Assembly: GCA_051362555.1 (NCBI GenBank)
Contig: CM120640.1
Location: forward strand, 71,340,788 to 71,404,787
Source of the DNA: Lingula anatina
Lineage: Eukaryota; Animalia; Brachiopoda
Direction of reading: 5' to 3'
DNA length: 64,000 bases
Part shown: piece after piece, positions 8,375 to 61,434 of the stretch
Layout: the number at the start of each line of letters is the position of its first letter
Numbering within the stretch: the stretch's first letter is position 1
Notes under the pieces: model-generated
What the model saw: the letters and a program-made list of their open reading frames with translations, nothing else
What the model was told of the DNA's origin: nothing
Databases searched by the model: none
Position numbers and translations under genes: made by a program

Positions 8375-11300
8375 TTAATCCTCTTTTAAGATTGTTTCAA
8401 AAAGTGCAGTTTCCAATCCTGTGGCTGATGTGATCCCTACAAAATAAAATTAAAACTAATGAATTGCCTCAAACATCAATTTTTGTCAATTTTTCAATCA
8501 CTTTCAATACAGAAGGCCTTAACAGACTGTTTTCCAGTTTATCAGAGAGACAAGGTCAATTCAATCTTTTTTCCTGTAATCTATAACAGTTTCTTACCAA
8601 GGGTGACAAACAATCCTGCGATGTTAATACATATTTCTCTGTCCTCATCCGGATATTTCCCATCATGCAGCAGGAGGTAGAAGATGTTTACGTAGGACGC
8701 CCCACCCAGGAGACCAACATAGATCATGTACGCTGGCAGGAGATACTCGGGAATCACTTTAAACTGAAAAAAAATTTAATTGAAATAAATAAGGTTTCTA
8801 CTGGTTACTATATGTATATACATGTATTGTAACACTCTTTTCCTACAATCTTTGAAAAACAGTCAAAGCTGTCATAGCACACATGACAAGTTTTAAAGCT
8901 TATTATTGAATTAACTTGGTTTCCACTCCATGTAAGCCTCCATAAATGTCCAGTTTGAGTGTTACCTACATGGACATCCAGCAGCCAGACCACCATGTTG
9001 ACCAGCTGTAATAGTGTTAACACCTCCACACGCCTTATCTGGATGATCTGTACTGAAGACCTGGATGCAAACACACCCGCCTAGAACCCATAGCAGACAG
9101 ATGATACATAGACAGCTTGAATACTGAATTATTAGGAACCAAGGGAGTGGTCCAAATATGCCACTTTATTATTATGTAAAAAATTGAATTGCTATGGATA
9201 ATCTTTCAAATTTATAAAACAAGTATAAAAGAAAATTGTAAATATCTTGTACCCAATCAATGCACAACAAAAGAATCCACTTTGTATTAATGTTTTTAAA
9301 TATCACTATGGATTTTTTTAGTTTGAATTTTCTAACACTGTATGCAGGAAAGTACCTGATTTGTTGCAAAAAAAAAAAAAAAAAAAAAAAAAATCCAAGG
9401 TTATATATGAATTCACCTTCACCTGGCCGTCCCTACATTTACTGGCATGAAGGTATAGGGGCACATGTCTGATTAGTCAAGGGTATCGTACATTCATGTA
9501 AACCACTGCTGTGACAATTACTACACTGTGCCCCTGGGGTGTAAAGATCATATCTAAACCAAGCTGAAGTTTATATATAACTGGGTTACCTGGTAGCAAA
9601 ACTGCAATGCTGCATAAAACTCTGGACAGCCCACATTATACGCACTCTTTGCTTCCACTTTGGAGGCACAAGCTCTGGCCACATATTCAAACAGATACAC
9701 CAAGCTTAACTGGAAATATACACAGGATATGTACTTGTATAGTGTAATCCAGAAACAGTTGTCATCTTTTTAGAAATATAATAATCTACTATACCTAGCT
9801 GTAGCAATTGAGTGGGAGGTTGGTGTTGGGGTGGGGGTACTGCTTACATTGATACTGTGCCATATAACCAGTTTAAAGCACCTCCAGTATCTCTGAGGAC
9901 GTGTCTCTGGGGGTAGTAGCACAGGGACAGAGGTGATATATACTGGTAGTGTGGTGGGGGTGGGGTACAGCTTACATTGATACTGTGCCATATAACCAGT
10001 TTAAAACACCTCCAGTATCTCTGAGGACGTGTCTCTGGAGGTAGTAGCACAGGGACAGAGGTGATATACTGATGACCAGTGACACTGTGACCTGCACCGT
10101 CGCCAGTTGTGTCATCTTCTGGGTGTTCAGAGGAGGACCTGTCTGCAATAAAAAAAATTATTTCATAGTGATGTTTAGCTGGGTAATATTTAAGTCCACA
10201 ATTTTTACACTGACTATAGCTCAATTCTGTAGGCCCAGTTCCTCCCTGGTTGTGACAGCTCATATAACTATCTCAGCCAGCCATGTAGCTACAAGTAGGT
10301 CTCCACTAACAGGAGATTACTACCTTATTAGGCAAGCCACTTCATTTCTACATACACTTTTCCATACCTGAACACACTGAGTGTAATTGGAAATCACCAT
10401 AAGGGCTTGAGTAAGAGTCATGATGGCACTAGCACTGTGACTTGATTTGTTTCAACCAGCAACAAAACCTTCTTTACTAGCTACTCATGGCTGATTAAAC
10501 CACATACTGTTTATCTATTCTATTCAGGAAAAACCATTTACAATGGAAATCTGCCTCTTCATCTGGTTTTAGCAGTGTGGGATACTGTATGTTGTTCTCT
10601 GAGCCAGAGGCAACGAGGGGTTTATACGGTACACTACTTTTCTCAATCCTCTGTATCCTTTCTGCCCTGTGTTTGTGTGGAGCCTTCACAATGAAGAAGA
10701 ATGACACCCAGTAGATCAGCACCACTGGCATGGTCAGCAGGAAGGCATACCTGGAAATAACACCAATGTTATATTGTGCCATCCAGTAGATCAGCAGCAC
10801 TGACATGGTCAGCAGGAAGGCATACCTGGTTACAACACTGATGTTATATTGTGCCAGACAGTAGATCAGCACCACTGGCATGGTCAGCAAGAAGGCATAC
10901 CTGGAAATAACCATCAAGTTAAATGGAATTCAGTGCTGGAAAATAAAAGATAATTATTGATCTTTCTTTGAAACACACCCACATTTTGCATAATTACATT
11001 TCGTTATAAAAACAAAACTTCAAATGCCATTTATTTATATGTTAGCAATTTTGACACTATTTTAATTGTATTTTAAATAGCATCATTAAAGTTTGTTAAA
11101 AATTAAAGCAAGAACAATACAAATCTAATATTTCTCTAAAATTCTCAACAATTCTCTCAGACTTGTAGTAACCAACCATCATTCTGTTTTGTTTCAAACT
11201 CAAAACTGACATATACAAAGGCACAGATTCAGTCATATGTAGCTTTTCCTTTATTTCTAAAAAGATGCAATGCGCATTTGAACATTACATAGTACAGTAA

Positions 11301-14300
11301 ATCTTTAAAGAAAATGGGAAGATCTAAAAAATAATGTGCACTGTCTCTTAAAGTAATTATCTTGACCATCACAAAACATAACAAATGTATATTTTTGGTC
11401 AGCATGTCAATGAAACTTACCTGTCCAATTCTTTTAGTTGATCTTGTTTGTCCTCAGCCTTGGTTGTGTTTTGTACAACACAGCCTGCAAAGAAGAATTA
11501 GATAGTAGTCAAAACTATATATTTCATTTTTACCTTCAAACTTATTTTTGATTAAAAATACTCAAAACCAAACATACTGAAATGCCTTATGTAAGAAATG
11601 AGACAAGAAGCTCTGCCAGATCCCGTATTTTCCTTGCCACACCCTCTACACTTTCCTTGCCACATCCCCTTGGTTGCCTATGAAAGGCATGAAGGGACAG
11701 GGAAAAGACTTGAGGTACTCAGGAATCTTATTAGTAACTTTAAATTGTTCTTTCCCCATCACCACCTGCTAAACCAATAGTTGAAGGAGAAGACAGAAGA
11801 TAGACAAGGAACGAATATATTCTCACCAAAGATGATGAACAGCTGAGGAAGAAGACAGAAGATAGAATAGGAATGCACTTGCCAAAGATGATGAAGAGTC
11901 CAGCTCCCAGCAACCCCGCCATTCCTGTGCCACTAGCATATGCATTGACCAGCTTGCCAGGAAACCTGGACAGGTAGCCAAGGAGAACACTGCAAAATAA
12001 AGGAATTCTGACAAGTGTAATCTGTTACAAGTCAATTTTAAGATTTTCCATACTATATCATCTACACCTATTCATTCTTTTCAGAAATTCTTAAAAGCAG
12101 AATTCACATATTACACATTTGAACTGAGAAGTCCACAGGTGTGATTTAGACAGATATCTGTGATTTAGACGGATTTTTGTGATTAAAACTGATTTTTTGG
12201 TTTAGGGACCCCAGCTGGCATGCAATATTACTGGATTAAATCACAAGACTGCTGTAGATCACAGGGAAATATGATGAGGTATAATGAGGCATGCTAGACA
12301 GACTTACTTCTCTCCAAATGCTGCACTGGACCCTGCTACCACCTGTAACATAATGATACATCTGTTACTAAAAGAAAGTCTTTGCTCTACAAGTATGTTT
12401 TACAGATGGGGTCGTTCAAACTACAATAGCCTGGTTAGAAAACTGGACAGCTCTTACTGCCAGGAATTGTTGTGGAGTTACATTGCACTAACACTAACAC
12501 AGTAACAGGTGATTGCTGTTAATTATCAATAACAGCTACAGTATTTAACATTTCAAGATAGAAAATACAAGGAAAGCAAAGCAAAAAAAAAAACAGCTAC
12601 ATGTAACTCTCTATGCAAAAATTGGATTAAAAAAGACTGCCCCAAATCTTAAGGTGGAAATACTAGTATTATTTGCATGCAAGAAGGTTAAAGGCTTCAT
12701 CTGCATAACTACAGCACTATATTAGGATTTGTAGTCAGCAGTCAATGTCTAGGAATCGAGCAACACACAGCATTTCATAAGTGAAAAATAAAAATATTAA
12801 TCCTCAGAATGTTACAAAAGAGTTATGAAAAGGTAAAGACTCACAATACATGCAAGGGCCATGCCAAAAGATGAAGAGAAAGCTATGCCAAGCAAACCTG
12901 AAACACAGAGGCAAACTTCTTGAAATAAAGGCTCAGTTAATTTAACAGTATTATTTTAAATAGGTGATATTTGCAAATAATATCCACAAGTTTGTTAAAT
13001 AATATGAAGCAAATCCAGATAAAACAGACAAGCTAAAAAAGGACATTAAAGGAATAAAATGTTGTCTAATTAATTTTTTTAATTATTTTCCCGATCCTAT
13101 CATTATTATTTTCATCTGTTTGTAACTGAAATCATATTTCTCCCAATATTAAATCAGATAAGTGAGCTGTCTGTGAGACACCTCCACTGAACAGTGAATA
13201 CTTGTTATGGTTAGTAACACTAGTTAGTAACAGTGTGGATCAATGGCCCGGGTCTTTGGTGGAACAATCTTTCAAGACTAGAGTAACTGCACAATGTAGT
13301 GATGTACTAGTCCAGTGTGAACAATGCCTTTCCATTTCCAATATCTCCATTCAAAATAGAAGAAATACCAGGGGCCGGTTTCACAAAGCAGTAGTTAGTT
13401 AGCGATCGGTAGTTAGCCTCTCGCTAGTTATAGTGCCGTTTCACGAAGCAGTCGCTAGTTCTCTCGCTCGTTATTTTCTCGTTGTTACCATGGATATTTA
13501 ACGACTGGTCAGACCAGTCACTAACTCTAGACTTTCATCGTACGCATGCGTAATGAGTGAAATAAAAAGATTGCTTAGTTACCATTGTCTGTCGTTTAAC
13601 TTTGTATCCAATATGGCGGCTACCTTTCTTGCTATCCATACCGCCAGACGGCAACGTAGACTACGAAGTTTTCATGAAAGGCAGGATCTATTATTATATA
13701 CATACTATGATGCAATTTATGAGAGGTTGCGCCTAGCTGTGACAAAAAGAGAGGCAAAAAGGTGGTGGAGATCCTTTACGACGACCTCAAAGCAGACGTT
13801 CTTATGCATTTCCAGCCACCAAAAATTGGAGAGTTAGTGCTTTCGTGACACTTTTACGCAAGAGTTCCACTTCCGGCAGACGGTTTCGAGACTACGGTGA
13901 GTAACGAGAGAACTAGCGACCGAACTTTACGACTGAACTTAGCGATAAGTTAACTACTGCTTCGTGAAACACCCCTCGAAAATCGCTAAGTTTGCTCGTT
14001 AGCGAGGTAGTTCAGTAGTTAGTTGTTCTAACTAACTACTGCTTTGTGAAACCGGCCCCAGGTACCATCAACCAAACTCACCTCCTAACATCAGAAGTCC
14101 ATTGATCACAATCCTTATAGCATATGGAACTTTCAGCAGAAAGAATGTGTTCAAAGCTTAAAAAGAAAACATTTCCATTCAATAATCCATTTCAAAGTCA
14201 TGTCTCTGACTTAATTGTGTAAAATGCAATGTAAACAGTGCCATTTTTTAAAAAGTTGTGTACCATAAATACTAACAGGTCAGCTACATTTTATCACAAA

Positions 14301-15716
14301 AAGCTCTGCAAGGTACAAAAGTTCAAATTTTATAACTTACATTTGACAACAAAAGCTGCAGCAACATTGGCTCCAAAGACCAGGCCAACAAAGTTCGTCT
14401 GGCCATACCTGAAAATGGCAGTAGACAAATAGCTTTTCATTCTACAGTAAACTGAAACATCTACAGTAGGTACACAAGCACAAAGAATAATACTACAGCA
14501 TGGATAATTAGGGCTCAGAGACACTTTCCTGTTGTGCTTAAGTTAAAAGGAGTATCTGGATAGTGGTTACTGAAACAGGGACAGATGGAGGCCATCTTCT
14601 CAGTCTTCTGAATATGTCTTCATAATTGGTGATTGACCTGTTTTAATTCCTCGTGATTGGTGATTAAGGAGGGGGGGGGGTATTCCCTACCTGAGGCTCT
14701 ATTAACTGACATAAAACAACACCTGCTATTACCTTGATATGTGTCAATGAAAACACAGAACGCTTCTTACAATACCAAACTACTTAAGTAGACTATAGCA
14801 ACATAATACATGGAAATAGGAAACAGTTATACAGTATGCATGTACATGCTGTACATTAGTGCCAGATGCAGGGTAGAACCGGCTGGATAGCTCAGGCGGT
14901 AGAGCACTCGCCCTGTTAGTGAGCAGTCCCAGGTTCGAATCCCTGGTCTGGCAGGTGATTTTTCTGCACTCACCCCAAATCGCTACATACATTACCTTCA
15001 AAATTGAGGGTGAAGTACGTTTGGTACCATGTACGTACATGTACTTACTCGCTAGCTATGGTGCTTGCAGCTGAATTTATCACAACGTACGGAAGGTTGT
15101 TAATGGCTCCCATCAAAAACAGCCCGATCTAAAATGATATGACAATGAGGAATTCAAGTAATATACATAGATGTACGTTTCACTTTCAATAATTCAAGCT
15201 GTAAACATTATGATTATGCAACACGACTTGGTTCCGCCGCATCCGTAAAATTGCTAAAATTACTTGCCCAAGCAATCAATGTATCTGACGATGATATATG
15301 CTCCTCTGTACAATGTCCAGACCTACGACATGGCACTGCTGTGATGGAATGTTTATTGATCATAAAGAACCTTAACATACAAGGTACAGATCATCGATAG
15401 CGTACAAGCAAATATAAAATGGTCACAGAAATACAATACTAGATATAATGGATTAAAAAAAAAAAAAAAAAAAAAAACTACATGGAACATACGAATTAAA
15501 CTTACACCTAAGAATGGATATTTTACTGACCGACATCCAACTATAACAAGGCACCATAACACTACTAGCAATAATAACGCACAATTACAATGAGAAATAA
15601 ATAAATAATTATATAGGTTATATACCCAGCTACAGTAGTGATGTTGGACGCCAACTCTGACCAGGCGTTCACAATGTACTCACCCAGTTCCGCAAGATCA
15701 TCGAATCGACAGCCAT
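8375..15716 (-). CDS. CLN3: CLN3/battenin (BTN1)-family membrane protein, about 14 coding exons
   Basis: Spliced exons give MAVDSMILRNW|IGLFLMGAINNLPYVVINSAA, SSAAFGENVLLGYL, AYASGTGMAGLLGA, LSLVYLFEYV, YQ|AGVFASRSS, VGLLGGASYVNIF and EDREICI, all CLN3-family motifs. Stop TAA at 8375-8377. May be a divergent paralog rather than the ortholog. Confidence 0.9.
9835..10070 (-). repeat. Tandem duplication (128 bp x2) of a CLN3 exon 3' end plus its donor
   Basis: YITSVPVLLPPETRPQRYWRCFKLVIWHSIN|gtaagc occurs twice (GCTTACATTGATAC at 9842 and 9970). Confidence 0.95.
10707..10915 (-). repeat. Tandem array (75 bp x3) of a CLN3 acceptor plus exon start
   Basis: GAAGGCATACCTGG at 10741, 10816 and 10891; in-frame RYAFLLTMPVVLIY repeats. 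Confidence 0.95.
13372..14058 (+). mobile_element. Non-autonomous PIF/Harbinger element in a CLN3 intron
   Basis: TIR GGGCCGGTTTCACAAAGCAGTAGTTAGTTAG (~31 bp, perfect) with 3-bp TSD CAG. Internal remnant MAATFLAIHTARRQRRLRSFHERQDLL...DAIYERLRL resembles a Harbinger transposase N-terminus. Confidence 0.9.
14881..14990 (+). mobile_element. tRNA-derived SINE head or tRNA pseudogene
   Basis: A-box TAGCTCAGGCGG, B-box GGTTCGAATCC, D-arm GCTC/GAGC and anticodon stem CTCGC/GTGAG. Acceptor stem imperfect, extra C in the T-arm, non-canonical anticodon loop. Confidence 0.7.
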
Positions 15717-25800: not shown

Positions 25801-25869
<69 letters not shown>

Positions 25870-28226: not shown

Positions 28227-28748
28227 TCATGTTGTCTTTGGTTTACTGGGGAAGTAAGATGACACCAGGGGGGGCTGTGGTCGTGGGTTCAGTTTCGGCA
28301 CCACAACTTGCTGACTGAGTCTGGTAGTTTTCTGGAGAGGTATCTCAGCGGCCAGCTGTGTTGTAGGTGGCGTTGTGGTCTGTGGGGTCATGTGACGCAG
28401 GGGGACAGTGGCCTGTCCTGGCTGGAGGTACTTCTGGCTCAGAGGGGGGTCACTACAAACACAAAACAACACTGGTATAACAGCTTTGTGGAGCCAACAC
28501 AATGATTTACGGTCTATCCTTCATAGATATTTTACAAAAATATTGCTACAACACATTATGTGTAATCAAACAGAAAAAAATCAATGGCAGTTTCAAAATA
28601 CTGAAGTATGCGAAAATAATTATTTCTGGAAATTTCATTGTCTTAAATCTTCCTTACTTACAGTAAACGGAATGCATGTCATGTCTTTTTTAGAGAAACC
28701 TTACTCTAAAATGAATTTTTTTAGCCAAGTAAAAGAAATAGGGTCTGA

Positions 28749-28808
<60 letters not shown>

Positions 28809-34800: not shown

Positions 34801-35065
34801 GCAGTTAAAAAACTTCAATATCTTTGTTACTTGTAGGAATATTTAAAAAATTCCAAATGATTTCATCCGGTTTTTGCATTACCTTTCAGATGATATAAGT
34901 ATTTTAATTTTCTGATCAGTTTGAAAATTTTTCTGATATACCTAACCCAATGACACACGTCAAGTGAGAAGTTTACAGTTACCATTACCTCTCTTCCCGC
35001 TCTGCAAACTTCGCCGTGACAGGAAGAGGCCGAGAGAACAGTTTTTCGACTGCAGAAGACCCCAT
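28227..35065 (-). CDS. SASS6: Spindle assembly abnormal protein 6 (centriole cartwheel protein), multi-exon
   Basis: Exons give [16 protein letters not shown]...EER|KQTVLITLE...PIHTK|[27 protein letters not shown]|[22 protein letters not shown]|...[19 protein letters not shown] (SAS-6 head domain), then coiled-coil exons (30759-31049 etc.) and a P/S/T-rich tail ending [11 protein letters not shown]. Confidence 0.95.
28751..28806. repeat. (TA)n microsatellite in a SASS6 intron
   Basis: Uninterrupted TA run. Confidence 0.95.
29042..29232 (-). repeat. Diverged duplication (115 bp x2) of a SASS6 acceptor plus exon start
   Basis: CTTACTCACAGGA...GGTCTGGACTGGC.TGTACTGCA.CTA.AGAATACATGCT at 29059 and 29174. 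Confidence 0.85.
32689..33024. mobile_element. Kolobok-like MITE in a SASS6 intron
   Basis: TIR AGGGATAATAACTCTTCGT / ACGAAGAGTTATTATCCCT with TTAA on both flanks. TTAA TSD plus purine-purine termini fits Kolobok better than piggyBac. Confidence 0.8.
33599..33771. mobile_element. ~172-bp MITE, copy 1 (TIR CTGGGGTAGCGCTA)
   Basis: CTGGGGTAGCGCTAGC ... GTTAGCGCTACCCCAG; closely similar copy at 35723-35894. Confidence 0.85.
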
Positions 35066-38400: not shown

Positions 38401-41138
38401 GGGTTGCTGCCTAACTGTTTCCTTAATATTTTGTAGACCTGCACCTGCTCCATGAGAGTTGCTGCCTAACTGTTTCCTTAATATTTTGTAGACCTGTACC
38501 TGCTCCACTGGCCTTACTGTCCACTTGCTGAGAAAGATCCAAAACATACGCTACACGAGTCCTGGAGAGCTCTGGAAGATCTTTACGATGAAGGTGAACA
38601 TTCTTTTAACCAAAGTATTTTATGTGATAAGTCCAGCTTATAGTACTATATTACCTTGTTTTAAGAAGATTATCAGTAAGATCATTCATTAAAATCATTG
38701 AATGTTCACAATGGATTCAACTTTTACGTCTTAATGAAATACTAGACTATTTGTTTTATTATCATTATTATTATTATTTAGTGATGTTTTGGAAATTTGC
38801 AGTCAGTTCTTCAAAGTAAAAAAAAAATTAAAGAATTGGAATTATGCTAATAAACCATGTACAGGAATCTTTCAAATCAGGAGATTTTTCTTTATTTATC
38901 CAAAGGAAAGATAAAAGCAATTGGTGTCAGCAACTTCCTCATTCCTCATCTTGAAGATTTGCTAGAAGAGTGTCGAATCCGCCCCATGGTGAACCAGGTG
39001 GAACATCACCCTTACAACAACGAGAAAGATCTATTTCAGTTCTGTAAAGATAACAATATTCAATACGAGGTATATAACACATTGAACAGTGAGAGAAAGC
39101 TCTAGTTCAGTTCTGTAAAGATAACAATATTCAATACGAGGTATATAACACATTGAACAGTGAGAGAAAGCTCTATCTCATTTCTGCAAAGATAACAGGT
39201 GCTGTATGTAATAAAAAAAATTCTAGTGGATAGAAATGGTCGTCTGTAGCCAGTGTAAACGCTATAAATGTAAAAACAAAATGAGGTATAAATTTAAGAA
39301 CAAAATAATGCAAATGACACATAGAAGACAAAGATTTACCTCTCACAGTGTGTTAGGTCGGATAATATCACAGAGTCACTTATTTTCAGGGTTACTGCCC
39401 ACTGGCCAAAGGTCGGATACTTAATGAGCCCATAGTTGTGGAGATAGCTCAGCAGCACAACAAAACACCTGCTCAGGTGTTAATCAGGTGGTCGTTGCAG
39501 GTAAGAGATCAACACACACAGGGAGGGGTTATAGAGCTAGGAGCTGATCCTGTGGTATCCAACTACAGAGTGTTAATTCCTGTATTCCTGTTCACTATGG
39601 CCTTATTCAGAACAGGGGACTAACTAGTCTGAGGGTCAAATATGCCCAGCCCACTTGAATACTTCCCCATGGGATATCTATTCAGTGTCTGTTAGTGGAT
39701 TAGACAGCAAGCTTTGTAGTGGGTCGCCATAATTGTCCCTTGGACTTGTTAGTCCCCTTGTCTGAATGGGGCCTATGTTACATGTACAGGTTTAAGGCTA
39801 GTTTCCAGTAGTGTGCCTGGCTTGAGAGAGATGGTGGGTGTGAAGTGGCTTATCTTTTAAGAAAAAATATTTTATCTTAAAGGGACAACAAACGCAAACG
39901 AGTCACCATAACACTCACAGAGCCTTCTGTCTCACCACACTCATGCTTGAACATCACTTCTTCCAGACTGCTGAGCTTATATTGTACAATGTTATGTTTG
40001 TAAAATAAAAATTAAGATTTGCCAGAGATATAACCAGAGTTATCATGAAAATGATTTAATTCTTTTACAGGATGGAATAGTTACAATACCCAAATCTACA
40101 AAAGAATCCAGAGTACTGGAGAATTGTCAGGTATAGAGAAATGTTTTGTGTGCTTTGGTTAAACTTTTATATTTAGTTGTCATTACTGATACAATGTAAC
40201 AATGTACTGTACAGCTAGGTGCTTTCAGTAAAAGTTTTGCTTGCATTTGTTTATTTCTTAGTTGATATAACTGCTGAATAAAATTGTATGCTGTTTTTGT
40301 TGTTTTGATGTAACTGGTTATGGAGCTATTTTCCATTATTTTGAGTTAGTGCATCTTCTTTTATCAGCCTAAACACTATCATATACTTATTATGTTATAT
40401 GCCATACTGTTAGTTTAGTTCAGTCCCAGGTCTTGAAACCAAATTACAGTTTGTGTCTTTGGGTGACAGGTTTGTGATTGCAATCACCAAGTTAATGACC
40501 ACAAAATAAACCACGAAGAACAAGTCTCCTCACCTTCCCATTTGGCATATTTAGACAGCAAGCAATCCACTTAAAGCTGTCCAAATGGTTCACAGTTTAT
40601 ATGGTGATCACAAATCTGTGTCTCAAAGTCACAAAGAGCAATAATTTGCTTTAGAGGCCTGTTAAACCCCATTCAGAATGAGAATATCTGAGTGCTAACT
40701 GGTCCATGGTTAAAATATGGCAGACCTACATGAAAGGAGGATGGCTTAATCCTGTAATGGTCTTTTGGCCTCACACACCTCCCCACGTGTTGTCCCTGCT
40801 GGGGCAGGGTAATTAAATCTCGACTCCATTTGACCAGACACTTGGGGAGGCATGTGAGAGGCGGACAAAGTAAAACAGGATTAAGCGGTCTTCCTTTCAT
40901 GTAGGGTCTTCCATATTTGAGCCTTGGACCAGTTGATACTCGGATCTTCTCATTCTGAATGGTCCCTTAGAGTCCCACTCTCTCAGTAGTCTCCATCTTG
41001 TAATGTCAGGTGTTTGACTTCACCCTCTCTGACAGTCAGATGACCACCCTGCATGGCCTCCACACAGGTTTACATGCATCGTGGGATCCATACAGACCAC
41101 AAGACTTTATGACGCACATTGCACAAATGTGGGACTAG
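35472..41138 (+). CDS. Aldo-keto reductase (ZK1290.5-like subgroup), isoform with proximal last exon 41010-41138
   Basis: Exons: MSALTKTVVLSNGLHMPIFGLG|TSHLGGYSH...GYRHIDTAERYG|...IFLTSKLW...DYL|DLYLLHWP|GKIKAIGVSNF...PMVNQVEHHP|GYCPLAKG...TPAQVLIRWSLQ|DGIVTIPKS...ENCQ|VFDFTLS. Catalytic D, Y, K and H are present. Confidence 0.92.
35723..35894. mobile_element. ~172-bp MITE, copy 2, in AKR intron 1
   Basis: Same TIR and body as 33599-33771. Confidence 0.85.
36280..36428 (+). repeat. Duplication (81 bp x2) of AKR exon 2 3' end plus donor
   Basis: RHIDTAERYGTEDKLPLAIK|gt twice and in frame (36281, 36362). Confidence 0.95.
38115..38512 (+). repeat. Tandem array (~55 bp x7-8) of an AKR acceptor plus exon start
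   Basis: TGTAGAC(C/T)T at 38166, 38224, 38278, 38333, 38377, 38432 and 38487; only the last continues as DLYLLHWPY. Confidence 0.92.
39030..39198 (+). repeat. Duplication (71 bp x2 plus partial) of an AKR exon 3' end plus donor
   Basis: TTCAGTTCTGTAAAGATAACAATATTCAATACGAG|GTATAT at 39035 and 39106. Confidence 0.92.
39599..39773. mobile_element. Fold-back MITE (Harbinger-like)
   Basis: GGCCTTATTCAGAACAGGGGACTAAC ... GTTAGTCCCCTTGTCTGAATGGGGCC, flanked by TAT on both sides. Confidence 0.75.
40667..40966. mobile_element. Fold-back MITE just upstream of the AKR proximal last exon
   Basis: Arms CCATTCAGAATGAGAA...AACTGGTCCA...CCTACATGAAAGGA...CTTAATCCTG are mirrored as CAGGATTAAG...TCCTTTCATGTAGG...TGGACCAGTT...TTCTCATTCTGAATGG. 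Confidence 0.8.
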
Positions 41139-43426: not shown

Positions 43427-46400
43427 TTAGGACACTGCGATGGCAATGACCATGATGATGACCAGGATGACCGTCAGGGTGATGTAAATGGCCAACATGG
43501 TCGACTTGAAACGACGGCCCTGAAACAGGAATTACGGGAAACTTGAATACCATCAGTATTAAGTATGGACTGTGTGACATGATAAGAAAAACTTATTTCC
43601 GTATAATCTATTTATGGTTAACAGTCAGACATGTTAAGACAATGAACATCCAAAAATGTTTCCCTAAAATACTGTTAGTATTAATACAGCTTCTAGATTT
43701 TGTAGTCTGTCACTTACGGAGGGTTCAGGTTCCGGCACCTTCTCTGCACGGGGGTCAGTGCGCTTCTGCATCTCCCACTGTTCACGCTTGTCTGGAAGAA
43801 AATCATCAATGGCTTTACTTGCAAAAGTACTGAAGTTTATTTCAAGAAACTAAATATTGTGCATAGAAAAAACCATTATGGTGATTTTGACTTAAGAAAT
43901 TGTGTGGTTTTGTCTACAGAAATAACAGATCAAACTTTCATCAAAACCATATGACTGACTACAACTGAGACTACAACTACAGTGTTTAAGAACTGAAAGG
44001 CTGCGGGATATTCTCACCTTTGTTTCTCTTGTGTACACAGCACTGATGAATCTCCAGGGTAATCTCAGTGATAAACTGGACCAGGACCCAGATCAACATG
44101 ACCCAGGTCACCCACCAGGGTACCCCAGACTTGGCCAGGTTCATTCCAAAGAAGATGTTGATGGCTGAAATACCAATAGGTCATATGGTCAGCAAAATTA
44201 GAACAGGGAAATGAGAAATATTTCATACCAAAGAAAAATTTGATGGCTGAAATACCAATAGTTCACTGGGTCAGCAAAATTAGAACAGTGAAATGATAAA
44301 TATTATATCCCCCTTCCCCTCCCCTAGACACCACCTGGTGTTGTCAGAGTAAACAAGGTTATAGTAGGGGACAAAAAGCTTTCTGTCAAACTTTTGAATT
44401 TGAATACTTGTGAGTACATCAGTGAAACATTAATTTAATTACATTTTATTTATTTACACATTTGTCTGAGCTGTTCACAATATTGTTTTAATATGTATCT
44501 TGAAATTATGATCATTATAAGTTAAACCCTGTACGTACTTGCCAGAATGTGCGCCACAGTTCCAACAATCCAGTGGAACCAGTTAAAGATGGGCCGATAA
44601 TCATCCTCGGGGTGGCAACGAAACAGAGCCATGATTGGCTGAAAATAAGTTATGACTTTGATAACTGACATGTGCATATTCTTATTTCAATTCCATAAAC
44701 AAATTCATCACTTGAGAATCTTAAAAATCTGCATATTTTGATGAATCCTTTCACGTGCTGCTGTTTTACAACTACCACCTTCACAGAAAGCCATTCTAAT
44801 AAGTCATCATTCAAATAAAGAGGTCACATTAATTCTGGTGATAGGGGGATGCTTACATTCAGTACACACAGTATGGTCACTATGATACCAATGATAGGCT
44901 GATACATTCAGTACACACAGTATGGTCACTATGATACCAATGATAGGCTGATACTTACATTCAGTACACACAGTATGGTCACTATGATACCAATGATAGG
45001 CTGATACTTACATTCAGTACACACAATATGGTCACTATGATACCAATGATAGGGTGAGCCACAGCAAAGCCTGGAGAGTCCATCTGGAATAAGAGCAAGC
45101 CACTATTCACAATTGTAACACATTACAGAATGTTGTCTACCCTCAAATGAACACTTCTTAAAATTTCCTCAAGTAATTAAAACATTTCGTTTTGGTAAAA
45201 ATAAAAAAGCAGTGGAAAAGCTTACGTTGCTGTATCCCATCACTTCAATGAAGATGAGTATAAAAGCAATGATGGTCAAGATCAGGGTGTTGATCTGCAA
45301 GGTACGGTGGTTCTGAAATAAGAGCAGAAAATCCATGTGACATTTTGTAACCTTCATTTATGATATCATCCCTGGTCACTTCCAACAGTGTCCTTGTAGT
45401 GACCTTCTTACTTTACACTACATTTTTAACACATATAATTACATATTTAATAATGTTACTACATCACACCGTTCTGCACTATACTTCACACTGACACCAT
45501 TATTAACAAAGTCCTATTGCTGTTAGAAGCTTTCTTTCTTCAAAGAGGAAAAATGGAGAAGGAATTTTAACGCAGAATGATAATCTTGATCCTTACAGCA
45601 AACCAGACCCTCTCTCCACAGAGCCTGTCATTGGGCCACATTGGCTTGAAATATCTGGCAAATATGATAGCAATACTGGAGGTCAACACCCAGGCCAGGA
45701 TCATCAAGATACCTGAAATAAAACAACAGAAGGTCAACAATATGATGGCAATACTGGAGGTCAACACCCAGGCCAGGATCATCAAGATACCTGAAATAAA
45801 ACAACAGAAGGTCAACAATATGATGGCAATACTGGAGGTCAACACCCAGGCCAGGATCATCAAGATACCTGAAATAGAACAACAAAAGGTCAACAATATG
45901 ATGGCAATACTGGAGGTCAACACCCAGGCCAGGATCATCAAGATACCTGAAATAGAACAACAAAAGGTCAACAATATGATGGCAATACTGGAGGTCAACA
46001 CCCAGGCCAGGATCATCAAGATACCTGAAATAGAACAACAGAAGGTCAACAATATGATGGCAATACTGGAGGTCAACACCCAGGCCAGGATCAAGATACA
46101 TGAAATAAAACAACAGAAGGTCAACCACCTAATGAGGATTGGCAAAGTTTCAGCAACTTAAATGTGACACAATACTTGATGTTTTTTCTTTAAAAATATC
46201 TAAATTAAATCCTTTCCTGAAGTCAATGTTCACTTACTTTGACCAATGGGTAACTTATTTTACCTCCAATGTTCTCAGTGTTCACTTACCATGAGCTTTC
46301 ACCAGAGGGTAGCTGGCATGGCCTCAAATGTTCTCTGTGTTCACTTACCATGAGCTTTCACCAGAGGGTAGCTGGCGCGGCCTCCAATGTTGTCAGTTTT

Positions 46401-49400
46401 GATCAAGTTGGTTCTCCGTGGTGACACAGCTGGGCCACCATAGTAGTCAAATCCATGCTTTCCCACAGCACCAGCTGGAAGAAGTAGAAAGGACAGAGGT
46501 CAGCAAACCATTCTTTTCAAGACCAGTGCATTAACATATGGAAATACAATTTTCAGATCACCATTGATGAAATCTAATTATTAGAAAAATATATTATGTT
46601 TCACTCTTTACTGTTGCATTAATTGTTTTTAGTGAAGACTTCACATCACATTTCAATCAATTTATTCATTACTCCACCAAAAAGTCCAACATACAAGCAA
46701 CTGGTCCTTTGGCAAACAATATATGGTATTCGTTATTTAATGGTTTCATCATTTTAGCATCAGAGCTGGTGATTGTACGGGTGAACCGACACCAGATGGT
46801 GCTGTTGGCATATGTGGCGCCCTCTTTTACTAAACCACTGCTCTAAAATAAGAAATTAAAAACAAATGTGTAATAATATGTTTAATATCTTTCTAGCATA
46901 TATATACATTGACCTTTTAAATGGCAGTCTACTATCTAAGCTGGGTAAGTTCAATAATTTTTCTAACATTTGCCTTAAATCTTATATGATATTTGAGATA
47001 AAAGATTCAACAAGGCAGCAGAGCTGTCAAATGTACAGACAGAAGGCAGAAAACAATTATGCTAGTAAACAATATTTTTTTCTGGTCTGTTTTGATGCAA
47101 TTTTACATAATGGTCAACAGCATAATCACACCTAGTTTTTATTGTGTAATACTGGTAACATGGACATTCAGAATATGCAACAAGGGCTTCAGGAAATATG
47201 GATAATGGGGGGGGGGGGGGGGGAGAGATAATCGCTTGACCACTTTACTAGAAATCAGTCCAATAACAGTATTACTCATCCAGGATAAGATCAATTTTGA
47301 TCTTAAAAGCAGGGTCCGCCCATGTTAATACCAATTCTATAATGATTAAGACCATGTAAGATCATCTGTGATCTGAAATTGCAGATTCAGATCATTTTAG
47401 GCACACTACCTGCACACCTAGAGATAGCAAGAGTTGTGTTTACAGCCCAAGTGGAGACATCACAAGACAAAGAGCAAAGAGCACCTGCGTCTTCACTGAA
47501 AGATATCTACACTGTAGTTACAGCTCTCACTGAATCCATCAACCTGAACTGACTACCTACTCTAGAGCCTAACATCTTCACTGGTGAAATAAAATTAATC
47601 ACATTCTTCACTCCTAATACATAGTGAAATGCAAAAACAAACTGCTGTGGCCTTAGGCGAGAGACAACTGGGTTACTGGTAAGATAACCCTTATAACTCT
47701 GCTGAACACACATTCAAAGTCCATTCTCTCACACCAGTTTACTGCTGAAAAGAGTACTGCTTCACATAGAACAGTTCGCTACACGCCCTAAAAATGGCTA
47801 CAGCTCGCAATGACAGAGATGAAGAAGAAAGCCTATGAGCCAAAATAACTGAATATTTTGTCAGCTGTCCATTATGCCTTGAGGAGCACAAAGACCCGAC
47901 AGATTTACCATGTAGGCATACATTTTGTAAAGGTTGTCTGAAGACTTATATTTCAAACCCAACACCAGGAAGTAAATTCAAATGTCCGGTGTGTCAGAAA
48001 GAGACTGAAGTTCCTAAAGATGGCCTTGAGGGCTTCACTCACAATTTATTCATTGAAAGCTTGCAGGACACTGTACTTCAGTCAACAAATAAGAAAAAGT
48101 GCAGCTTTTGTGTTTTGGTGTCCCAAAAAGAAACAGTGGCTACTTCAAAATGTATCACCTGCCATGACTACCTATGTGAGAGGTGTTCTCCATTCCACTG
48201 TGGTACCACACTCACTAAAGATCACAGGGTACTAACTTTTCAACAACTTCACAGCAGTGAGTGCCAAAAAGAAATCCAAGAGCAGCAGAAAATTATCTGC
48301 CCAGAGCACAAAGGTGAGATGATACGATACTTTTGTTCAGACTGCAGTGTTCCTATTTGTTGTGACTGCAGAGACCTACACCATGATGGTCACAAACTTA
48401 TCTCCCTTGAAAAAGCTGCAGAGATGGTAAAACCACAACTTCTGACCAAATCCTGTGGCATGGAGAAAAAATTTGCAAGGGGTGAGAAAACAATAGCTGA
48501 AATTGATGAAATATTGGCAACCCTCCAGGAAAATGAAAGCTTTGTTCAGCAGAAGATCAAAGCTCGTGCAGCTTATCTACGTCAACTGGTAGATCAACGA
48601 GAGAAAACTCTACTGCAGGAGCTTCATCAAACCACCAGTGCTCACAGAAATACACAAATTTACAAATTTCCCGCAAAAACTGCAAAGCCACTTGCTCCTC
48701 TATCAAAACCACAACAGATGTAGTAAAGAACATCCTTCAGCATGGTGTCCCCATAGATTTACTCATGTTACACCACCAACTTGGACAGAGACTAGATGAG
48801 CTACAGTCCAATTCAGCTGTGGATGATATTCCAGAGGAACTAAAACTCACACTCACCACCAACACAGAAGTGGACCAAGAGATATCCACTGGGGCTGGCC
48901 TGGGGAATGTGCAGATATCTAGAAAACCAGCTTTGCCCAAGTTCAAACCACAGGCTGAATGTATACTAGAGTTTGACACTGGCTATGAGAGGCCAGTGGA
49001 CATTTCAGTGAGTCCAAACAGGGAGTATGTTACTACATATGACGCCAAAAATAAGGTAAAAGTTTTTAGTTCAGATGGTACAGTTAGCAAGGAGATCACA
49101 AGTGTCTCAGACACACAGTTGGAATGGCCAGTGGGGATCTGTCACTTCCCTGATGGAAGGATGGTTCTAGCTTGTAGAGACAATAAGAAACTGTTCATCC
49201 TGTCACCACAGTGGGATGTACAGCAAACTGTAGACGTCAACAACCCATATGGTGTAGCTCTCAATAACAGCTGCACTAAGATTGCTGTGGCACAGCATAG
49301 GAAAGGAAAGTCTGTAAGTGTGTTCAGTATTGATATGAAAGGGCAAATAACTTTAACTGATGTGATAAAAGACAAAGTTGGGGAGCAGTTGTTCAATAAT

Positions 49401-52400
49401 CCATATAAAGTGGCATATATGAGCAATGGGTGCCTTGTTGTTAGTGATGAAACACCAAAAAAACTTCACATCCTAACCCCATCTGGTGACCCACTGTATC
49501 AATACACAGGACCTGATAACAAGTTAGGTCCACCCTTTGGTATCTGTGTTGATGCATATGACAACATACTGGTTACAGACTGTGATAACCACTGCATACA
49601 CCTCGTATCCCCAGATGGGAAGTTCATCCAGTACATAGCAACCCAAGCTGATGGACTATATAAACCATGGGGATGTACCATCAACCAGGATGGAGATCTG
49701 GTTGTGACCCAAGTGGATGGAAAAGTGAAAATATTCCAATACTTGGAAAAATGACATTATTTGAAATGCTAAGAAACTGAACATCATGCACTCTTCTGTC
49801 ATATTTCAATAATGTAGTATACAAGAAAGCAAAGCATCCAAATGTAAAAATACAAAGCAGAAAATAATGATGGTAGTGTATAAAATATTTTTCGTCAATT
49901 TTGATGCAGTATTAAACAATAATAAACAGCATAATCAGGTGGATGGGAGTTAAAAGCCACATCTTGAAAATGCAAGTGTTTGAAAAAAAATTAAAAAGAA
50001 AACATAGCAAAAATTGTTCCAATAAAGCTGCTATTCAAACTTTTGATCTGGCTGTATTAAAATGATATGAATAACCCCACTGAGTTTGAGGATATTAAGG
50101 CACTATTATTCATCTATAGCATTGATGCTGGCATAACACAAAATAATTTTTTCTTTTGGAAACTTATTAGCAATATTAAACAACATTTACCAGTATTATT
50201 ATCACAGATTCCTTATTATGTGACACTGTTAATTTAGACTTGCACAAACTGTATCTGGCAGAGAGCTAAACTAGTGGGAGTTTACAGGGAAATCTCAACA
50301 TGTGTGTTTTATGTGATCTCATTTAATGGCCACTTGAAACTTAATTTGGCAAGAGACTTAATAGCTCTAAACTTAGCTAGTGATTACCAAAGGGAAAATT
50401 ACAGACTGACCACCCAAATGAGACTAGCAAAGGCCTTCAGGCCCATGAATTTCTAAGTCACACCTTAAAAATTCCAATATATACAATATATACCACAACA
50501 AGTTTTCCATCATTTTTATATAATCAACTAACAACATAGTTAAGATGCAGAAAATGTCAAAAGAACACTCTAAGATATTTAATTAGTTCAATAATGAGAC
50601 TGTTAACATGCCTAAGAATTAAATCTGAAGAAAAACTATTTATATACAAAATAGGCATAACTTCATCAAAACTTAACCGATCAAGCTTAATCTGTATACT
50701 AGTAAGACTGATCACTCCTGAGAGTAGCAAGTCAATTATATAATAGGCTGATCGGTTTTCCTTAAAATGTGTTAAAAGCACTGCATGTATGCTGAAAAAA
50801 ACCCAAAAACTGTATAACTTTTGTAAAAATGGTTTGATCAAGCTGATTTTCAAACTTGATCTGAGTTTTAGTAAGATTGATCACTCCTGTAGGTTACTAG
50901 ACAATAGGTCTATCAGTTTCCTTGAAATGTGTTATCAGTGTTGCATATATGCTGAAAAAAGCAAAAAAAAAAAGAAAAAAACACATAATCTTTTAAAAAA
51001 TGGTCCAATCATGCTGATTTACAAACTCGACTCGCATCTTATGAATATTCATCAGTTCTGCAAGTATAAGCCACAAGATAAAACGGTTTTCTTGTTATCA
51101 GTGGTGAAAGTACATGGTGACGACCACGACGGCCACGACAGATGCAGGTGACAGCTATATATACATACACATCTGTGTCTGTACATAATAAAAAGTCATC
51201 TAATATTGAAAGTTGACTAACTCCAATCTGTCCAGAGGTAAGTGGATCCTCAGAGTTGTAATACTGATGAACTGCTGTTGTTCCTTTGTCTTCATCATAT
51301 ATACATGCTATTACACTGTCATCACCCTAGGGAACAATATAAGAAGACAAAATTTAGCTTCTTTACTAACACTTGGGAATTTACTTAATTTTTTATTATT
51401 ATTTTTTACATGAAATTCCAAGCCCATTAACATAAAATGACAAATAAGGTCATGTTTAGGTGTGAAAATCAGTGAATTTAGTACTATTTACAACATTAGA
51501 TGTCCAATGTATTTGACACATAAGAGTGTAATTATATCAAGACGCAGCAGAGATATAATTTGCTGTCGGGTGTCACATACAGTGGATGACGAGTAGTTGT
51601 AACTGACTTATACCACAGCTGACACTTTGAACTACAGGATGATTGCACTTGTATTTAGCTACAAGCCCATCACATCATAATACAGGAGAGCCTGGAAGTG
51701 AAACACAAGTACAACTATCCTACTGTTGGAAGTGCTGGCTATGGGATAATTTAGTATTTTACATAACAGAGCCAGGTGACCATGTAAAAGAATTAGAATA
51801 GCATCAAAAATCAAAGCCTAACATTCTGTAGATTAACTACATCAGTACTAAGATTTCCTCTTTCCATTATCAATGTACAATCTTTTTAATTTCAAAAATC
51901 TACAGGACTTATGCATGAATCAATGAACATACTATAAAAAGAAAATAAGAAAACATAATCATTTAGTCTAAACGAAAACTATACAAAACCATCAACAGGA
52001 TTCTAAAAAAGTGAATCTAATCATTTTTGATGTTTTTAGTATGAACAGAAAAGATGAATTCATATAAAATGTTGCTCCAAATGCCACAGTTCATATCAGT
52101 CCTATAATCTATCATTGCTTAATACATGGATATCATATCCCCCACCCCTGTATGCAAGGAGTGTTTGTTTCACACTCACCATCTGTTTATCATTGGAAAA
52201 CCCAACAGCCACGTATTTCTGATCTCCCTCCATTTTACCAATCATTTCAAACTTGATTTTGTCTTCTCCATCTTTCTGCCATGACAACGCATATATACAC
52301 TGCCCTTGAACACAGCCTGCTGGCACCCTGTAGCAACCCTTACTATTACCACAACCATCTAACTTTACTGCTGGAATAGTGATCTGAAATAAAGAGTTAG

Positions 52401-54526
52401 AAAACATATATATAGTGAACACATCACCCTGTAGCAACCCTTACTATTACCACAACCATCTAATTTTACTGCTGGAATAGTGATCTGAAATAAAGAGTTA
52501 GAAAACATATATATACTGAAAACATCACCCTGTAGCAACCCTTACTATTACCACAACCATCTAATTTTACTGCTGGAATAGTGATCTGAAATAAAGAGTT
52601 AGAAAACATATATATACTGAACACATCACCCTGTAGCAACCCTTACTATTACCACAACCATCTAATTTTACTGCTGGAATAGTGATCTGAAATAAAGAGG
52701 AAGAAAGCATGATCGTAGCATTCTTATCTACACTGCCCACTTCTCTCTCTTTCTCTCGCACGCACGCACGCACACACACACTGTCCCCCATATATTGGAT
52801 AATGTGATAAATGAGGGCAGTGTATCACCTACCACTATAGGAGGTCCTGTCCCCATTGTGGTGGTGACAATATCTGGGGCCGTCGGATCCCTCACAAGAG
52901 CTGATATCTCATTATCCCAGAACACGGCCTGCGTCTGAACTATAGTAGCTCTGAAAGAACAATCAAGGATAATATCAGGTTATTTTTGTTAAGTTTTAAT
53001 ACTTCATAAAAACTGAAAATGGACTAGACAGCACAGCTTGCAAATATACATACCATATCCAGCAAAATGTTGCATCAGTATTTAAAAAAAATCAGCTTTT
53101 AAAAAAATAATCCCATTAAGCTGATTTTTGTAAGTAACCTGCCTCACTGGGTAGGGACTGACATTTGGATAGCAATGGCAAATGTGATGACTATGACACA
53201 GACAGACAGACACAGTGATCAGAATAAATAGACACATACAGTGGCTGTATATAACAACTTTCTAAAACTAAAAAAAAAAAAACTCACTATCTGATTCAAT
53301 CTAGCTGGGACAATACTGATGCAAAGAAATGATGAGATCGGCAATAATTTTTAAACAGTAACATTCCACTTTAACTGAGGCCTTTGTCAAAAGATAACAT
53401 GTCCTTAAAAACACCTACTTGAAAACCAAATGTCCCTGGAAGCTGGTTGGAGCATTCCAGGTTAGAACCACCTCTGATTTGTCACTGCCGCTACTGTGAG
53501 ATATGGCATTCTGAAAAATGACACAATTTAACGTTTGTCTCAACTTTACCAGTCAGTTTAAAAACCAACAATACAAGTCATTTGGGATATAAATTACCAA
53601 AAAATCATGTTTTTTTAAAAAGAAATTTTACTCTAAAATGTGGCAAAATTGTCTGCATGACCTAGTTCTATAATGAGGCTCTGATATTTACATCCAGTGT
53701 GGTACTCATTTGTTTCAAAGCTGTGACCAAATATAGGTTAACATCCACATAGGATTAAGGGACTTACACCAAGCGCTTTGTCACACAAAATTTTGGACCC
53801 AGAAATGGCGTCAAATCTTCCAATGGGCTCCTCTACGTTAAGTGATGGATCTGCTCTACGAGCCTGCACAAAAAAACCTTTAAACCTCTCTCCATTCTTT
53901 CCCTTTATGGTAACTGAAACACATGCATAAGAACTAAAATATAATGAAATTTATTTATTTCTCCATTTATTAACTGATTCATCAAGTTATTTAGTTAGTA
54001 GTTTTAAATATGTAAAGGATTATAAATAGTTCAAGACTGATGTTGTCAGTACGACTGTAGCACATCATCAGTGTACTGATGTATAAATTAGCTTTCTGGG
54101 TATGAAAATATTGTAAAATAAATGGTTAAGTAGTTGTAAAAAAAAAATTAAAGACTTGGCATCAAGATTATTTTTTCATCTAAAAAAGCAAAATTGGGCT
54201 TAGAACTGAGGAGTAAATGTGGCATGATATGATATGTAAAAGTGTATGTGCTGCCACCTCTGAGGATGTCACATATTCCTATCTACAGGGACATTTCATG
54301 CTAAGAGTTGGAGATATATCATTATAAACTCACGTGTGACACTGCCTCCCTCTGCATACTGGTCCACACTGGGGGTGATAGTGTATGGGGAGGGTCCACT
54401 CTGTCCATTGGCACCATGACCACTGGGGACCATACTGATACAGGCCAGCTCTGGGGGTCCACTACTGTACCCACTGGCCTGGCTGACCAGACAAACACAC
54501 AACACCAATAACTGGACTGTGGTCAT
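43427..54526 (-). CDS. FRRS1: Ferric-chelate reductase 1-like (signal peptide, Reeler, DOMON, cytochrome b561), about 15 coding exons
   Basis: Reeler: GYSSGPPELACISMVPSGHG...SPYTI, FKGFFVQAR, WNAP. DOMON: GCGNSKGC, YVAVGFSNDKQM|GDDSVIAC, CRFTR. b561: LVKAHG|ILMILAW...ARYFK...WFA|NHR, HPIIG, PIMALFRCHP...RPIFNWFHWIVG. Stop TAA at 43427-43429. Confidence 0.93.
44158..44305 (-). repeat. Duplication (82 bp x2) of an FRRS1 acceptor
   Basis: GATGGCTGAAATACCAATAG...GTCAGCAAAATTAGAACAG at 44160 and 44242. Confidence 0.9.
44852..45053 (-). repeat. Tandem array (53 bp x4) of an FRRS1 exon 3' end plus donor
   Basis: PIIGIIVTILCVLN|gt repeated; CTTACATTCAG at 44852, 44954 and 45007, and one copy has lost 4 nt of the donor. 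Confidence 0.95.
45661..46125 (-). repeat. Tandem array (78 bp x6) of an FRRS1 acceptor plus first b561 helix segment
   Basis: In-frame GILMILAWVLTSSIAIILLTFCC(S/F)IS repeats; each unit contains tttcag|GTATCTTG except the 5'-most (ttcat). Confidence 0.97.
46225..46392 (-). repeat. Duplication (59 bp x2 plus degenerate copy) of an FRRS1 exon 3' end plus donor
   Basis: TTCACTTACCATGAGCTTTCACCAGAGGGTAGCTGGC at 46281 and 46340 (ASYPLVKAHG|gtaagt). Confidence 0.92.
47794..49754 (+). pseudogene. Intronless TRIM-NHL gene (RING, B-box1, B-box2, coiled coil, NHL repeats), disabled, nested antisense in an FRRS1 intron
   Basis: ATG 47794; in-frame TGA at 47836-47838; RING CPLC...LPCRHTFCKGC...CPVC; B-boxes (CSFC...CITCHDYLCERC...H; CPEH...YFCSDCSVPICCDC...H); frameshift near 48650; NHL repeats (WPVGI, NPYGVA, PFGICVD, KPWG). 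Confidence 0.88.
52325..52700 (-). repeat. Tandem array (101 bp x4) of an FRRS1 acceptor plus DOMON exon start
   Basis: CTGTAGCAACC at 52328, 52429, 52530 and 52631; each unit is tttcag|ITIPAVKLDGCGNSKGCYR. Confidence 0.95.
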
Positions 54527-54933
54527 TGCTCTAACTAATACTGAAACAGAACACAACACCAATAACTGGACTGTGGTCATTGCTCTAACTGATACTGAAA
54601 CAGAACACAACACCAATAATTGGACTGTGGTCATTGCTCTAACTGATACTGAAACAGAACACAACACCAATAACTGGACTGTGGTCATTGCTCCAACTGA
54701 TACTGAAACAGAACACAACACCAATAACTGGACTGTGGTCATTGCTCCAACTGATACTGAAACAGAACACAACACCAATAAGTGGACTGTGGTCATTGCT
54801 CTAACTGGTACTGAAACAGAACACAACACCAATAACTGGACTGTGGTCATTGCTCTAACTGGTACTGAAACAGAACACAACACCAATAACTGGACTGTGG
54901 TCATTGCTCTAACTGATACTGAAACAGAACACA
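54498..54933 (-). repeat. Tandem array (54 bp x8) of acceptor, start codon and signal-peptide start of FRRS1
   Basis: tgttctgtttcag|TATCAGTTAGAGCA ATG ACC ACA GTC CAG TTA TTG GTG TTG repeated 8 times in frame. Confidence 0.97.
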
Positions 54934-61407: not shown

Positions 61408-61434
61408 TATGCACAATGTAAGTCAAACTCAGTT

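What the first reader, a model, noticed from the sequence alone, without database searches (positions are those of the whole stretch)
9835..54933. Tandem duplications repeatedly centred on splice sites in four unrelated genes
Seen: at least 13 arrays with unrelated unit sequences (53-128 bp, 2-8 copies), each made of an exon edge, a splice site and adjacent intron. CLN3 has 3 (9835, 10707, 11790), SASS6 1 (29042), AKR 3 (36280, 38115, 39030) and FRRS1 6 (44158, 44852, 45661, 46225, 52325, 54498). In acceptor arrays the complete exon is the 3'-most copy; in donor arrays it is the 5'-most, so the extra copies lie in the intron. I noticed few comparable long-unit arrays deep in introns or between genes, although these make up most of the window. 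Inference: a junction-biased mutational process (for example repair or slippage at exon-positioned nucleosome edges or co-transcriptional R-loops) creates banks of alternative splice sites. Tandem duplication is an established proposed route to intron gain, but I do not recognise this density and junction bias as a described system.
Basis: partly seen in the sequence, partly recalled or inferred. Interest (0 to 1): 0.85.

Follow-up and report, generated by a model that had tools for sequence, protein, structure and literature searches.

The report
Splice-junction "mirage" repeats in a brachiopod
In four neighbouring genes of what is likely the brachiopod Lingula, 13 exon edges have been copied head-to-tail with their splice signals into the adjacent intron; this repeat type is already named "mirage" in lancelets and the RNA reads seen splice the extra copies out, but they sit at exon edges far more often than chance predicts and the cause is still open.

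Summary
All 13 arrays exist, each straddling a modelled splice junction. One CLN3 exon is 100% identical to Lingula anatina battenin-like. In an objective scan, 12 of 16 long-unit duplications cover a junction, against 1.9-3.9 expected even after removing wholly exonic placements (P 5e-9 to 2e-5; one window, picked after the fact). RNA reads settle 6 of 13 arrays, and all 6 use the splice site next to the complete exon, including an in-frame array; depth argues against retention in two more. That is evidence against a working bank of alternative splice sites. DNA from other studies carries several arrays, appears to lack one, and RefSeq models show other unit combinations. The class is already described as 'mirage' minisatellites in amphioxus (PMC3087553, PMC3902484), and this scan noted it on other DNA (29 notes, at least 6 genomes). 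My searches found no brachiopod case in print. The 5'/3' orientation rule is geometry, not evidence. The cause of the junction bias is unresolved.

The parts
8375..15716 (-). CLN3/battenin-like gene, 14 coding exons
   Evidence: Pfam CLN3 on P0004; several joints seen in RNA
9823..10068 (-). Donor array, 128 bp x 2; working donor at 9976 (5'-most copy); one DNA run shows a single copy
   Evidence: RNA joint 9709-9976, 4 reads; X3 contig skips 9841-9970
10702..10911 (-). Acceptor array, 75 bp x 3, in frame and stop-free; working acceptor at 10750 (3'-most copy)
   Evidence: RNA joint to 11421, 11 reads; other unit combinations in RefSeq P0003/P0004
11776..11898 (-). Donor duplication, offset 56-62 bp, about 75% identical; working donor is GC at 11883, intronic copy has GT
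   Evidence: 3 reads with a loose end matching the complete-exon copy
28231..35065 (-). SASS6 gene, 15 modelled exons
   Evidence: Pfam SAS-6_N and Sas6_CC on single exons; no RNA laid
29054..29231 (-). Acceptor duplication, offset 115 bp, 63 bp matched; modelled acceptor at 29100
   Evidence: splice choice inferred from the open frame only
35472..41138 (+). Aldo-keto reductase gene, 8 modelled exons
   Evidence: Pfam Aldo_ket_red; low RNA depth
36282..36424 (+). Donor duplication, offset 81 bp, in frame; outer donor weak
   Evidence: an X5 contig spans 36127-37658 at nearly the same length
38118..38519 (+). Acceptor array, 55 bp x about 8; outermost copy has lost its AG
39022..39197 (+). Donor array, 71 bp x 2.5
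43427..54540 (-).
   Evidence: 11 introns seen as RNA joints; DOMON E 4.5e-7 at 30.5 bits, below the 32.7 cut-off; homolog search blank
44140..44304 (-). Acceptor array, 82 bp x 2; working acceptor 44164 (3'-most)
   Evidence: RNA joint 44164-44539, 339 reads in 3 runs; X5 contig spans it with 1 gap
44839..45057 (-). Donor array, 53 bp x 4; working donor 45012 (5'-most)
   Evidence: RNA joint 44638-45012, 407 reads
45661..46125 (-). Acceptor array, 78 bp x 6, in frame and stop-free; outermost copy has lost its AG
   Evidence: joint not in the list shown; depth excess 4-24% of full retention
46263..46397 (-). Donor array, 59 bp x 2.3, in the same intron as the 78-bp array
   Evidence: not resolved by RNA
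52324..52710 (-). Acceptor array, 101 bp x 4; working acceptor 52383 (3'-most); outer copy's intron part diverged
   Evidence: RNA joint 52383-52833, 432 reads
54497..54933 (-). Acceptor array, 54 bp x 8, in frame, each unit holding the start codon
   Evidence: upstream exon outside the stretch laid; depth excess 5-23% of full retention
58671..58731 (-). Possible 14th case: 34-bp duplication of a donor-like AG|GTAAGT motif upstream of the FRRS1-like gene; counted as non-junction in the test
   Evidence: no exon shown here

Best explanation
These are 'mirage' minisatellites: real head-to-tail copies of an exon edge plus its splice site that lie in the intron and, in the reads seen, are spliced out; they likely arise as local duplication accidents concentrated at exons and are likely tolerated because the spliceosome pairs sites across the shortest complete exon. 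Step 1 (inferred): short tandem duplications from slippage or break repair start more often in or next to exons (47% GC against 35% in introns, and CpG-depleted, which suggests methylated gene bodies). Step 2 (inferred): copies wholly inside exons are removed by selection, leaving those that straddle one junction. Step 3 (shown for 6 of 13): the site next to the complete exon is used, so the extra copies are intronic. Step 4 (partly shown): unequal exchange then changes copy number and shuffles unit types between haplotypes. Step 5 (speculative): where the outermost splice site decays, full collapse would be harmful, which would let arrays persist.
For: Anatomy matches the published description: units span the boundary, both 5' and 3' boundaries occur, unit lengths vary. 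RNA joints use the proximal site in 5 arrays (4, 11, 339, 407, 432 reads) and a loose end in a sixth (3 reads). The in-frame 75-bp array is skipped, so nonsense-mediated decay cannot explain that case. Few reads fit two places of the 36000-55600 stretch (17 of 6983, 6 of 4425, 10 of 12061), and depth over three FRRS1 arrays is close to exon-only. Frame-keeping units 4 of 13, P=1.0 against one third. Length variation: an X3 contig skips exactly 128 bp, bin depths leave no room for a junction contig, and X3 depth is 71 against about 15 over the 75-bp array; RefSeq P0003/P0004 carry different unit combinations. Outer copies are the most diverged in FRRS1-101 (66% against 95-98%), AKR-55 (56% against 82-100%) and CLN3-75 (73% against 83%). 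GC and CpG values.
Against: The cause in step 1 was not tested; selection alone fails to explain an odds ratio of 13-34, so the required exon bias is large. The genotype of the RNA animals is unknown: an animal without the array gives the same joint. One search listed only the top 15 joints (112 hidden), so minor isoforms below about 220 reads are unseen; depth excess reaches 15-24% in three run-bin pairs. RefSeq P0004 includes one extra in-frame unit, which is either a model error or real use. Seven arrays are not resolved by joints. Outer-copy divergence is absent in FRRS1-54 and FRRS1-78. The X3 single copy comes from an assembled contig, and the two copies share a 36-bp exact stretch, so assembly collapse is not excluded. 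Only 2 of 7 acceptor arrays have a dead outer site, and the 8-copy FRRS1-54 has an intact one.
Confidence: 0.68

Rival explanations
1. A splicing-coupled mutational process targets the junction itself (for example R-loops, paused polymerase or spliceosome-linked breaks), so duplications centre on splice sites rather than on exons in general.
For: Odds ratio 13-34 for junction placement; 13 of 99 junctions carry an array with no significant difference among four genes (P=0.21); donors and acceptors are hit about equally (6 and 7).
Against: An exon-biased rate plus selection gives the same pattern, and this window cannot separate the two. No shared unit sequence or fixed breakpoint offset: exon parts run about 16-100 bp and intron parts about 11-57 bp (set by eye). 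One window chosen after the fact.
Confidence: 0.17
2. No bias at birth; junction arrays simply last longer. The working exon is held by selection and keeps re-templating its copies, and decay of the outer splice site blocks collapse, whereas intronic arrays drift away.
For: Exon part is more similar than intron part in 8 of 13 outermost copies (Wilcoxon P=0.03; part lengths set by eye). Two large arrays (8 and 6 copies) have lost the outer AG. The one array seen as a single copy has an intact outer site. Collapsing SASS6-115 would leave a 46-bp intron.
Against: Constraint on one of two copies slows divergence at most about twofold (inference), short of the lowest bound of 3.6. Most arrays have intact outer sites. 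5 of 13 go the other way in the identity comparison.
Confidence: 0.08
3. The arrays are functional banks of alternative or recursive splice sites.
For: Four units keep frame and three arrays are stop-free across all copies; RefSeq P0004 includes an extra unit; 3 of 7 acceptor arrays start with AG|GT, which could regenerate a donor, against 5 of 43 other exons (P=0.07).
Against: 6 of 6 resolved arrays use the proximal site; frame keeping is at chance; units and copy numbers differ between haplotypes; mollusc orthologues lack the CLN3 insertion (8 of 8 non-Lingula rows).
Confidence: 0.05
4. The arrays are assembly artefacts.
For: One DNA run shows a single copy at 9841-9970. No long reads were available.
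Against: Copies differ from each other by 2-40%. Contigs from two other studies span three 2-copy cases (X5: 36127-37658 and 43584-44881; X3: 10859-11957) and break at or pile up over the multi-copy arrays. RefSeq models carry repeated units.
Confidence: 0.02

Closest known systems
Amphioxus 'mirage' minisatellites (Adh3, globins BflGb6 and BflGb9, troponin C, PGBD5); PMC3087553 section 16 read whole, PMC3902484 passages; the original Adh3 paper (PMC117041) was not held and is known here only through those two
   Same: Tandem units spanning an exon-intron boundary; both 5' and 3' boundaries; unrelated units of varied length (10-160 bp there, 53-128 bp here); normal splicing kept; copy number differs between haplotypes; outer units partly excluded from homogenisation; gene models misled (PGBD5 there, probably P0003/P0004 here).
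   Different: Different phylum (brachiopod, by a 100% exon match). Density is quantified here (13 of 99 junctions) with an enrichment test; the passages I read give single-gene cases only. Somatic instability was not tested here.
Intron gain by tandem genomic duplication (Rogers model; PMC3443670, passages)
   Same: Duplication of a splice-like motif in tandem, with the added DNA spliced out.
   Different: That model duplicates an exonic AGGT segment and makes a new intron. Here an existing junction is duplicated and an existing intron lengthens; no new intron is shown.
Earlier notes of this scan on sea urchin, annelid, skate and elephant-shark windows (AI notes, unchecked)
   Same: Same description and the same filing as mirages.
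   Different: None names Lingula or a brachiopod (0 notes). They are not independent evidence.

Membership tests
Mirage minisatellites | Tandem repeat whose unit spans an exon-intron boundary and duplicates the splice signal | tested here: met
   13 of 13 arrays; two are interrupted rather than clean tandem copies
Mirage minisatellites | Both 5' and 3' boundaries affected; unit lengths vary and are unrelated | tested here: met
   7 acceptor and 6 donor arrays, 53-128 bp; no cross-match between arrays in self-BLAST
Mirage minisatellites | Regular splicing is not disturbed | tested here: met
   6 of 13 resolved, all proximal; 2 more by depth; 5 unresolved; carriers' genotype unknown and minor joints hidden
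Mirage minisatellites | Length instability between haplotypes | tested here: met
   CLN3-75: different unit combinations in P0003/P0004 and raised X3 depth; CLN3-128: single copy in an X3 contig, collapse not fully excluded. Two arrays only.
Mirage minisatellites | Concerted evolution inside the cluster, boundaries excluded | tested here: inconclusive
   Seen in FRRS1-101, AKR-55 and CLN3-75; not in FRRS1-54 or FRRS1-78; mixed in FRRS1-53
Mirage minisatellites | Somatic instability (reported for Adh3 only) | not testable with these tools
   Needs single-molecule reads or small-pool PCR from one animal
Intron gain by tandem genomic duplication | Duplicated segment is exonic and a new intron is spliced between the copies | tested here: not met
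   Units include existing intron; listed joints remove the whole array within one intron
Tandem alternative or recursive splice-site arrays | Joints to distal copies or intermediate joints in RNA | tested here: inconclusive
   None listed, but one search shows only the top 15 joints, CLN3 depth is 4-11 reads and libraries are mostly poly(A)

The most novel reading that the evidence does not exclude
Lingula has a genome-wide, splicing-coupled duplication process that hits about one junction in eight, shared with amphioxus and other marine invertebrates, and a ratchet (decay of the outer splice site) that locks arrays in. It would be a major unrecognised source of intron growth and a natural library of identical splice sites for testing how the spliceosome chooses.
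Probability: 0.2. Interest if true: 0.65.

Novelty: new member of a known kind. Interest (0 to 1): 0.35.

Why it matters
The class is known but little studied, and its origin was called unclear in PMC3087553. This window adds a likely brachiopod case, a measured junction excess that selection against exonic duplications does not remove, and RNA showing that even an in-frame array is skipped. If the excess holds genome-wide it makes two questions testable: whether exons or splice junctions are duplication hotspots, and how one site is chosen among near-identical neighbours. In practice such arrays can distort gene models, as the two RefSeq CLN3 proteins suggest.

Tried and rejected
No whole genome was held, so the genome-wide test could not be run. 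No RNA holder was listed by index; RNA runs came by species label and were laid directly. A homolog search with one FRRS1-like exon found nothing among 6 candidates, weak evidence. X12 gave almost no CLN3 reads (6). Rejected: frame selection (4 of 13, P=1.0); donor or acceptor preference (6 against 7); gene-specific effect (P=0.21). Not significant: arrays in shorter introns (median 213 against 315 bp collapsed, P=0.07); AG|GT starts (P=0.07). Literature: searches found no brachiopod or genome-wide mirage study; the library lacks most subscription papers, and for all but three papers I saw only search listings. PMC117041 was not held. Supplements of PMC3087553 and PMC3902484 were not opened; they hold the unit alignments and do not bear on the class assignment.
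Full report
Observation. Tandem Repeats Finder reports 10 of the 13 arrays and self-BLAST the other three. I built exon models by hand for five genes; all translate open with canonical junctions, one of them GC-AG. A 54-residue CLN3 exon is 100% identical to two Lingula anatina battenin-like proteins, the next hits being 83% or less, so the window is likely Lingula. Each array holds one junction: 7 acceptors and 6 donors, units of 53-128 bp, 2-8 copies. SASS6-115 and AKR-81 match over only part of their offset.

More than chance? A scan of all offsets from 30 to 300 bp, low-complexity hits removed, plus one TRF-only array, gave 16 duplications (strict) or 20 (loose); 12 and 13 cover one of 99 modelled junctions. 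After collapsing the extra copies, expected counts were 1.9-3.9 and 2.3-4.7 under whole-window and gene-span nulls, with and without dropping wholly exonic and whole-exon placements; P ran from 5e-9 to 7e-5. Inflating junction number by 30% left P near 1e-7 to 3e-7. Odds ratios are 13-34, lowest 95% bound 3.6. So selection against exonic duplications does not explain the excess. The test is on one window noticed because of the pattern, and no genome was available. One 'non-junction' hit (58671-58731) duplicates a donor-like motif and may be a further case.

Real DNA? Copies differ from one another. Contigs of run X5 span 36127-37658 and 43584-44881, including two 2-copy cases, and end at the multi-copy arrays; an X3 contig spans the 11776 duplication. 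An X3 contig skips 9841-9970, exactly one 128-bp unit, and bin depths leave no room for a separate junction contig; this suggests a single-copy allele, though the copies share 36 exact bases and assembly collapse is possible. X3 depth over the 75-bp array is 71 against about 15 nearby, and RefSeq P0003 and P0004 carry unit combinations that differ from the window's. An artefact is unlikely and length variation is likely, on evidence from two arrays.

Which copy is spliced? In three RNA runs, joints 44164-44539 (339 reads), 44638-45012 (407) and 52383-52833 (432) use the site next to the complete exon. For CLN3, joints 9709-9976 (4 reads) and 10750-11421 (11 reads) do the same, and 3 reads with a loose end match the complete-exon copy at the GC donor although the intronic copy has GT. 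That is 6 of 13 resolved, 6 of 6 proximal. Depth over FRRS1-78, -101 and -54 is near exon-only, with excess from -1 to 24% of full retention, and few reads fit two places. Limits: only 15 joints were shown with 112 hidden; CLN3 depth is low; the RNA animals may not carry the arrays; AKR, SASS6 and FRRS1-59 are unresolved. RefSeq P0004 includes one extra 25-residue unit that 8 of 8 non-Lingula rows lack; the reads argue for a model error but allele-specific use is not excluded. Frame-keeping units are 4 of 13.

Mechanism. The orientation rule follows from duplicating part of an exon with one junction. What needs explaining is tolerance and bias. Tolerance: the proximal site is chosen even when retention would stay in frame, which fits exon definition (established knowledge; not tested here) better than decay of wrong products. 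Turnover: outer copies are the most diverged in three arrays, not in two others, in part as described for BflGb6. Bias: I favour a raised duplication rate in or beside exons, which here are 47% GC against 35% and have CpG observed/expected of 0.24-0.39, followed by the selection filter. This step is inference. A junction-targeted, splicing-coupled process fits equally on this window alone; longer persistence through a decayed outer site may contribute (2 of 7 acceptor arrays, both large).

Known kind. [quoted passage not shown] PMC3902484 (passages) adds PGBD5 and troponin C. I recalled the term before searching; the original Adh3 paper was not held. Four of six listed features are met, one is inconclusive and one untestable. 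Intron gain by tandem duplication (PMC3443670, passages) differs because no new intron appears here. Nine literature searches found no brachiopod case or genome-wide count, in a library that lacks most subscription papers. This scan has 29 similar notes in at least 6 other genomes, none naming Lingula; these are unchecked and not independent support.

Verdict. Real, enriched at junctions within the window, spliced out where resolved, and a new member of a known kind. Interest 0.35, resting on the unexplained bias and on the arrays as a test of splice-site choice.

Noticed in passing
window 47801-49754 (+): Intronless RING/B-box/NHL (TRIM-like) gene inside FRRS1-like intron 6, opposite strand, split over two frames; X5 depth 1500-4300 against about 90 in single-copy bins points to a multi-copy family.
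   Followed up: partly
window 41010-41138 and 41610-41757 (+): AKR has two candidate last exons in tandem with similar starts, possibly alternative terminal exons.
   Followed up: no
window 61828-61909 (-): Displaced 90% copy of the outer flank, acceptor and first 20 bases of FRRS1-like exon 5, 9 kb upstream, followed by a donor-like motif.
   Followed up: partly
window 12344 to about 14085 (-): Three X16 reads join these places, which would skip CLN3 exon 12845-12897.
   Followed up: no
window 11883 (-): GC-AG intron in CLN3 whose duplicated intronic copy carries a GT donor that the 3 reads seen do not use.
   Followed up: partly
window 30709-30767: 22-bp x 2.7 perfect intronic repeat that ends about 16 bp from a SASS6 donor without including it.
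   Followed up: no
window 13366-14064: 37-bp inverted repeats around about 700 bp in a CLN3 intron, MITE or DNA-transposon-like; further palindromic elements at 18953-19144, 39599-39773, 40669-40962, 61230-61409.
   Followed up: no
window 62414-64000 (+): 442-residue ORF that by recall resembles a LINE endonuclease/reverse transcriptase N-terminus, with a frame break near 63740; not searched.
   Followed up: no
window 1272-3537 (+) and 21802-22212 (+): Two-exon Tctex-1 domain gene and an unnamed small ORF with two hydrophobic stretches; neither has arrays.
   Followed up: partly
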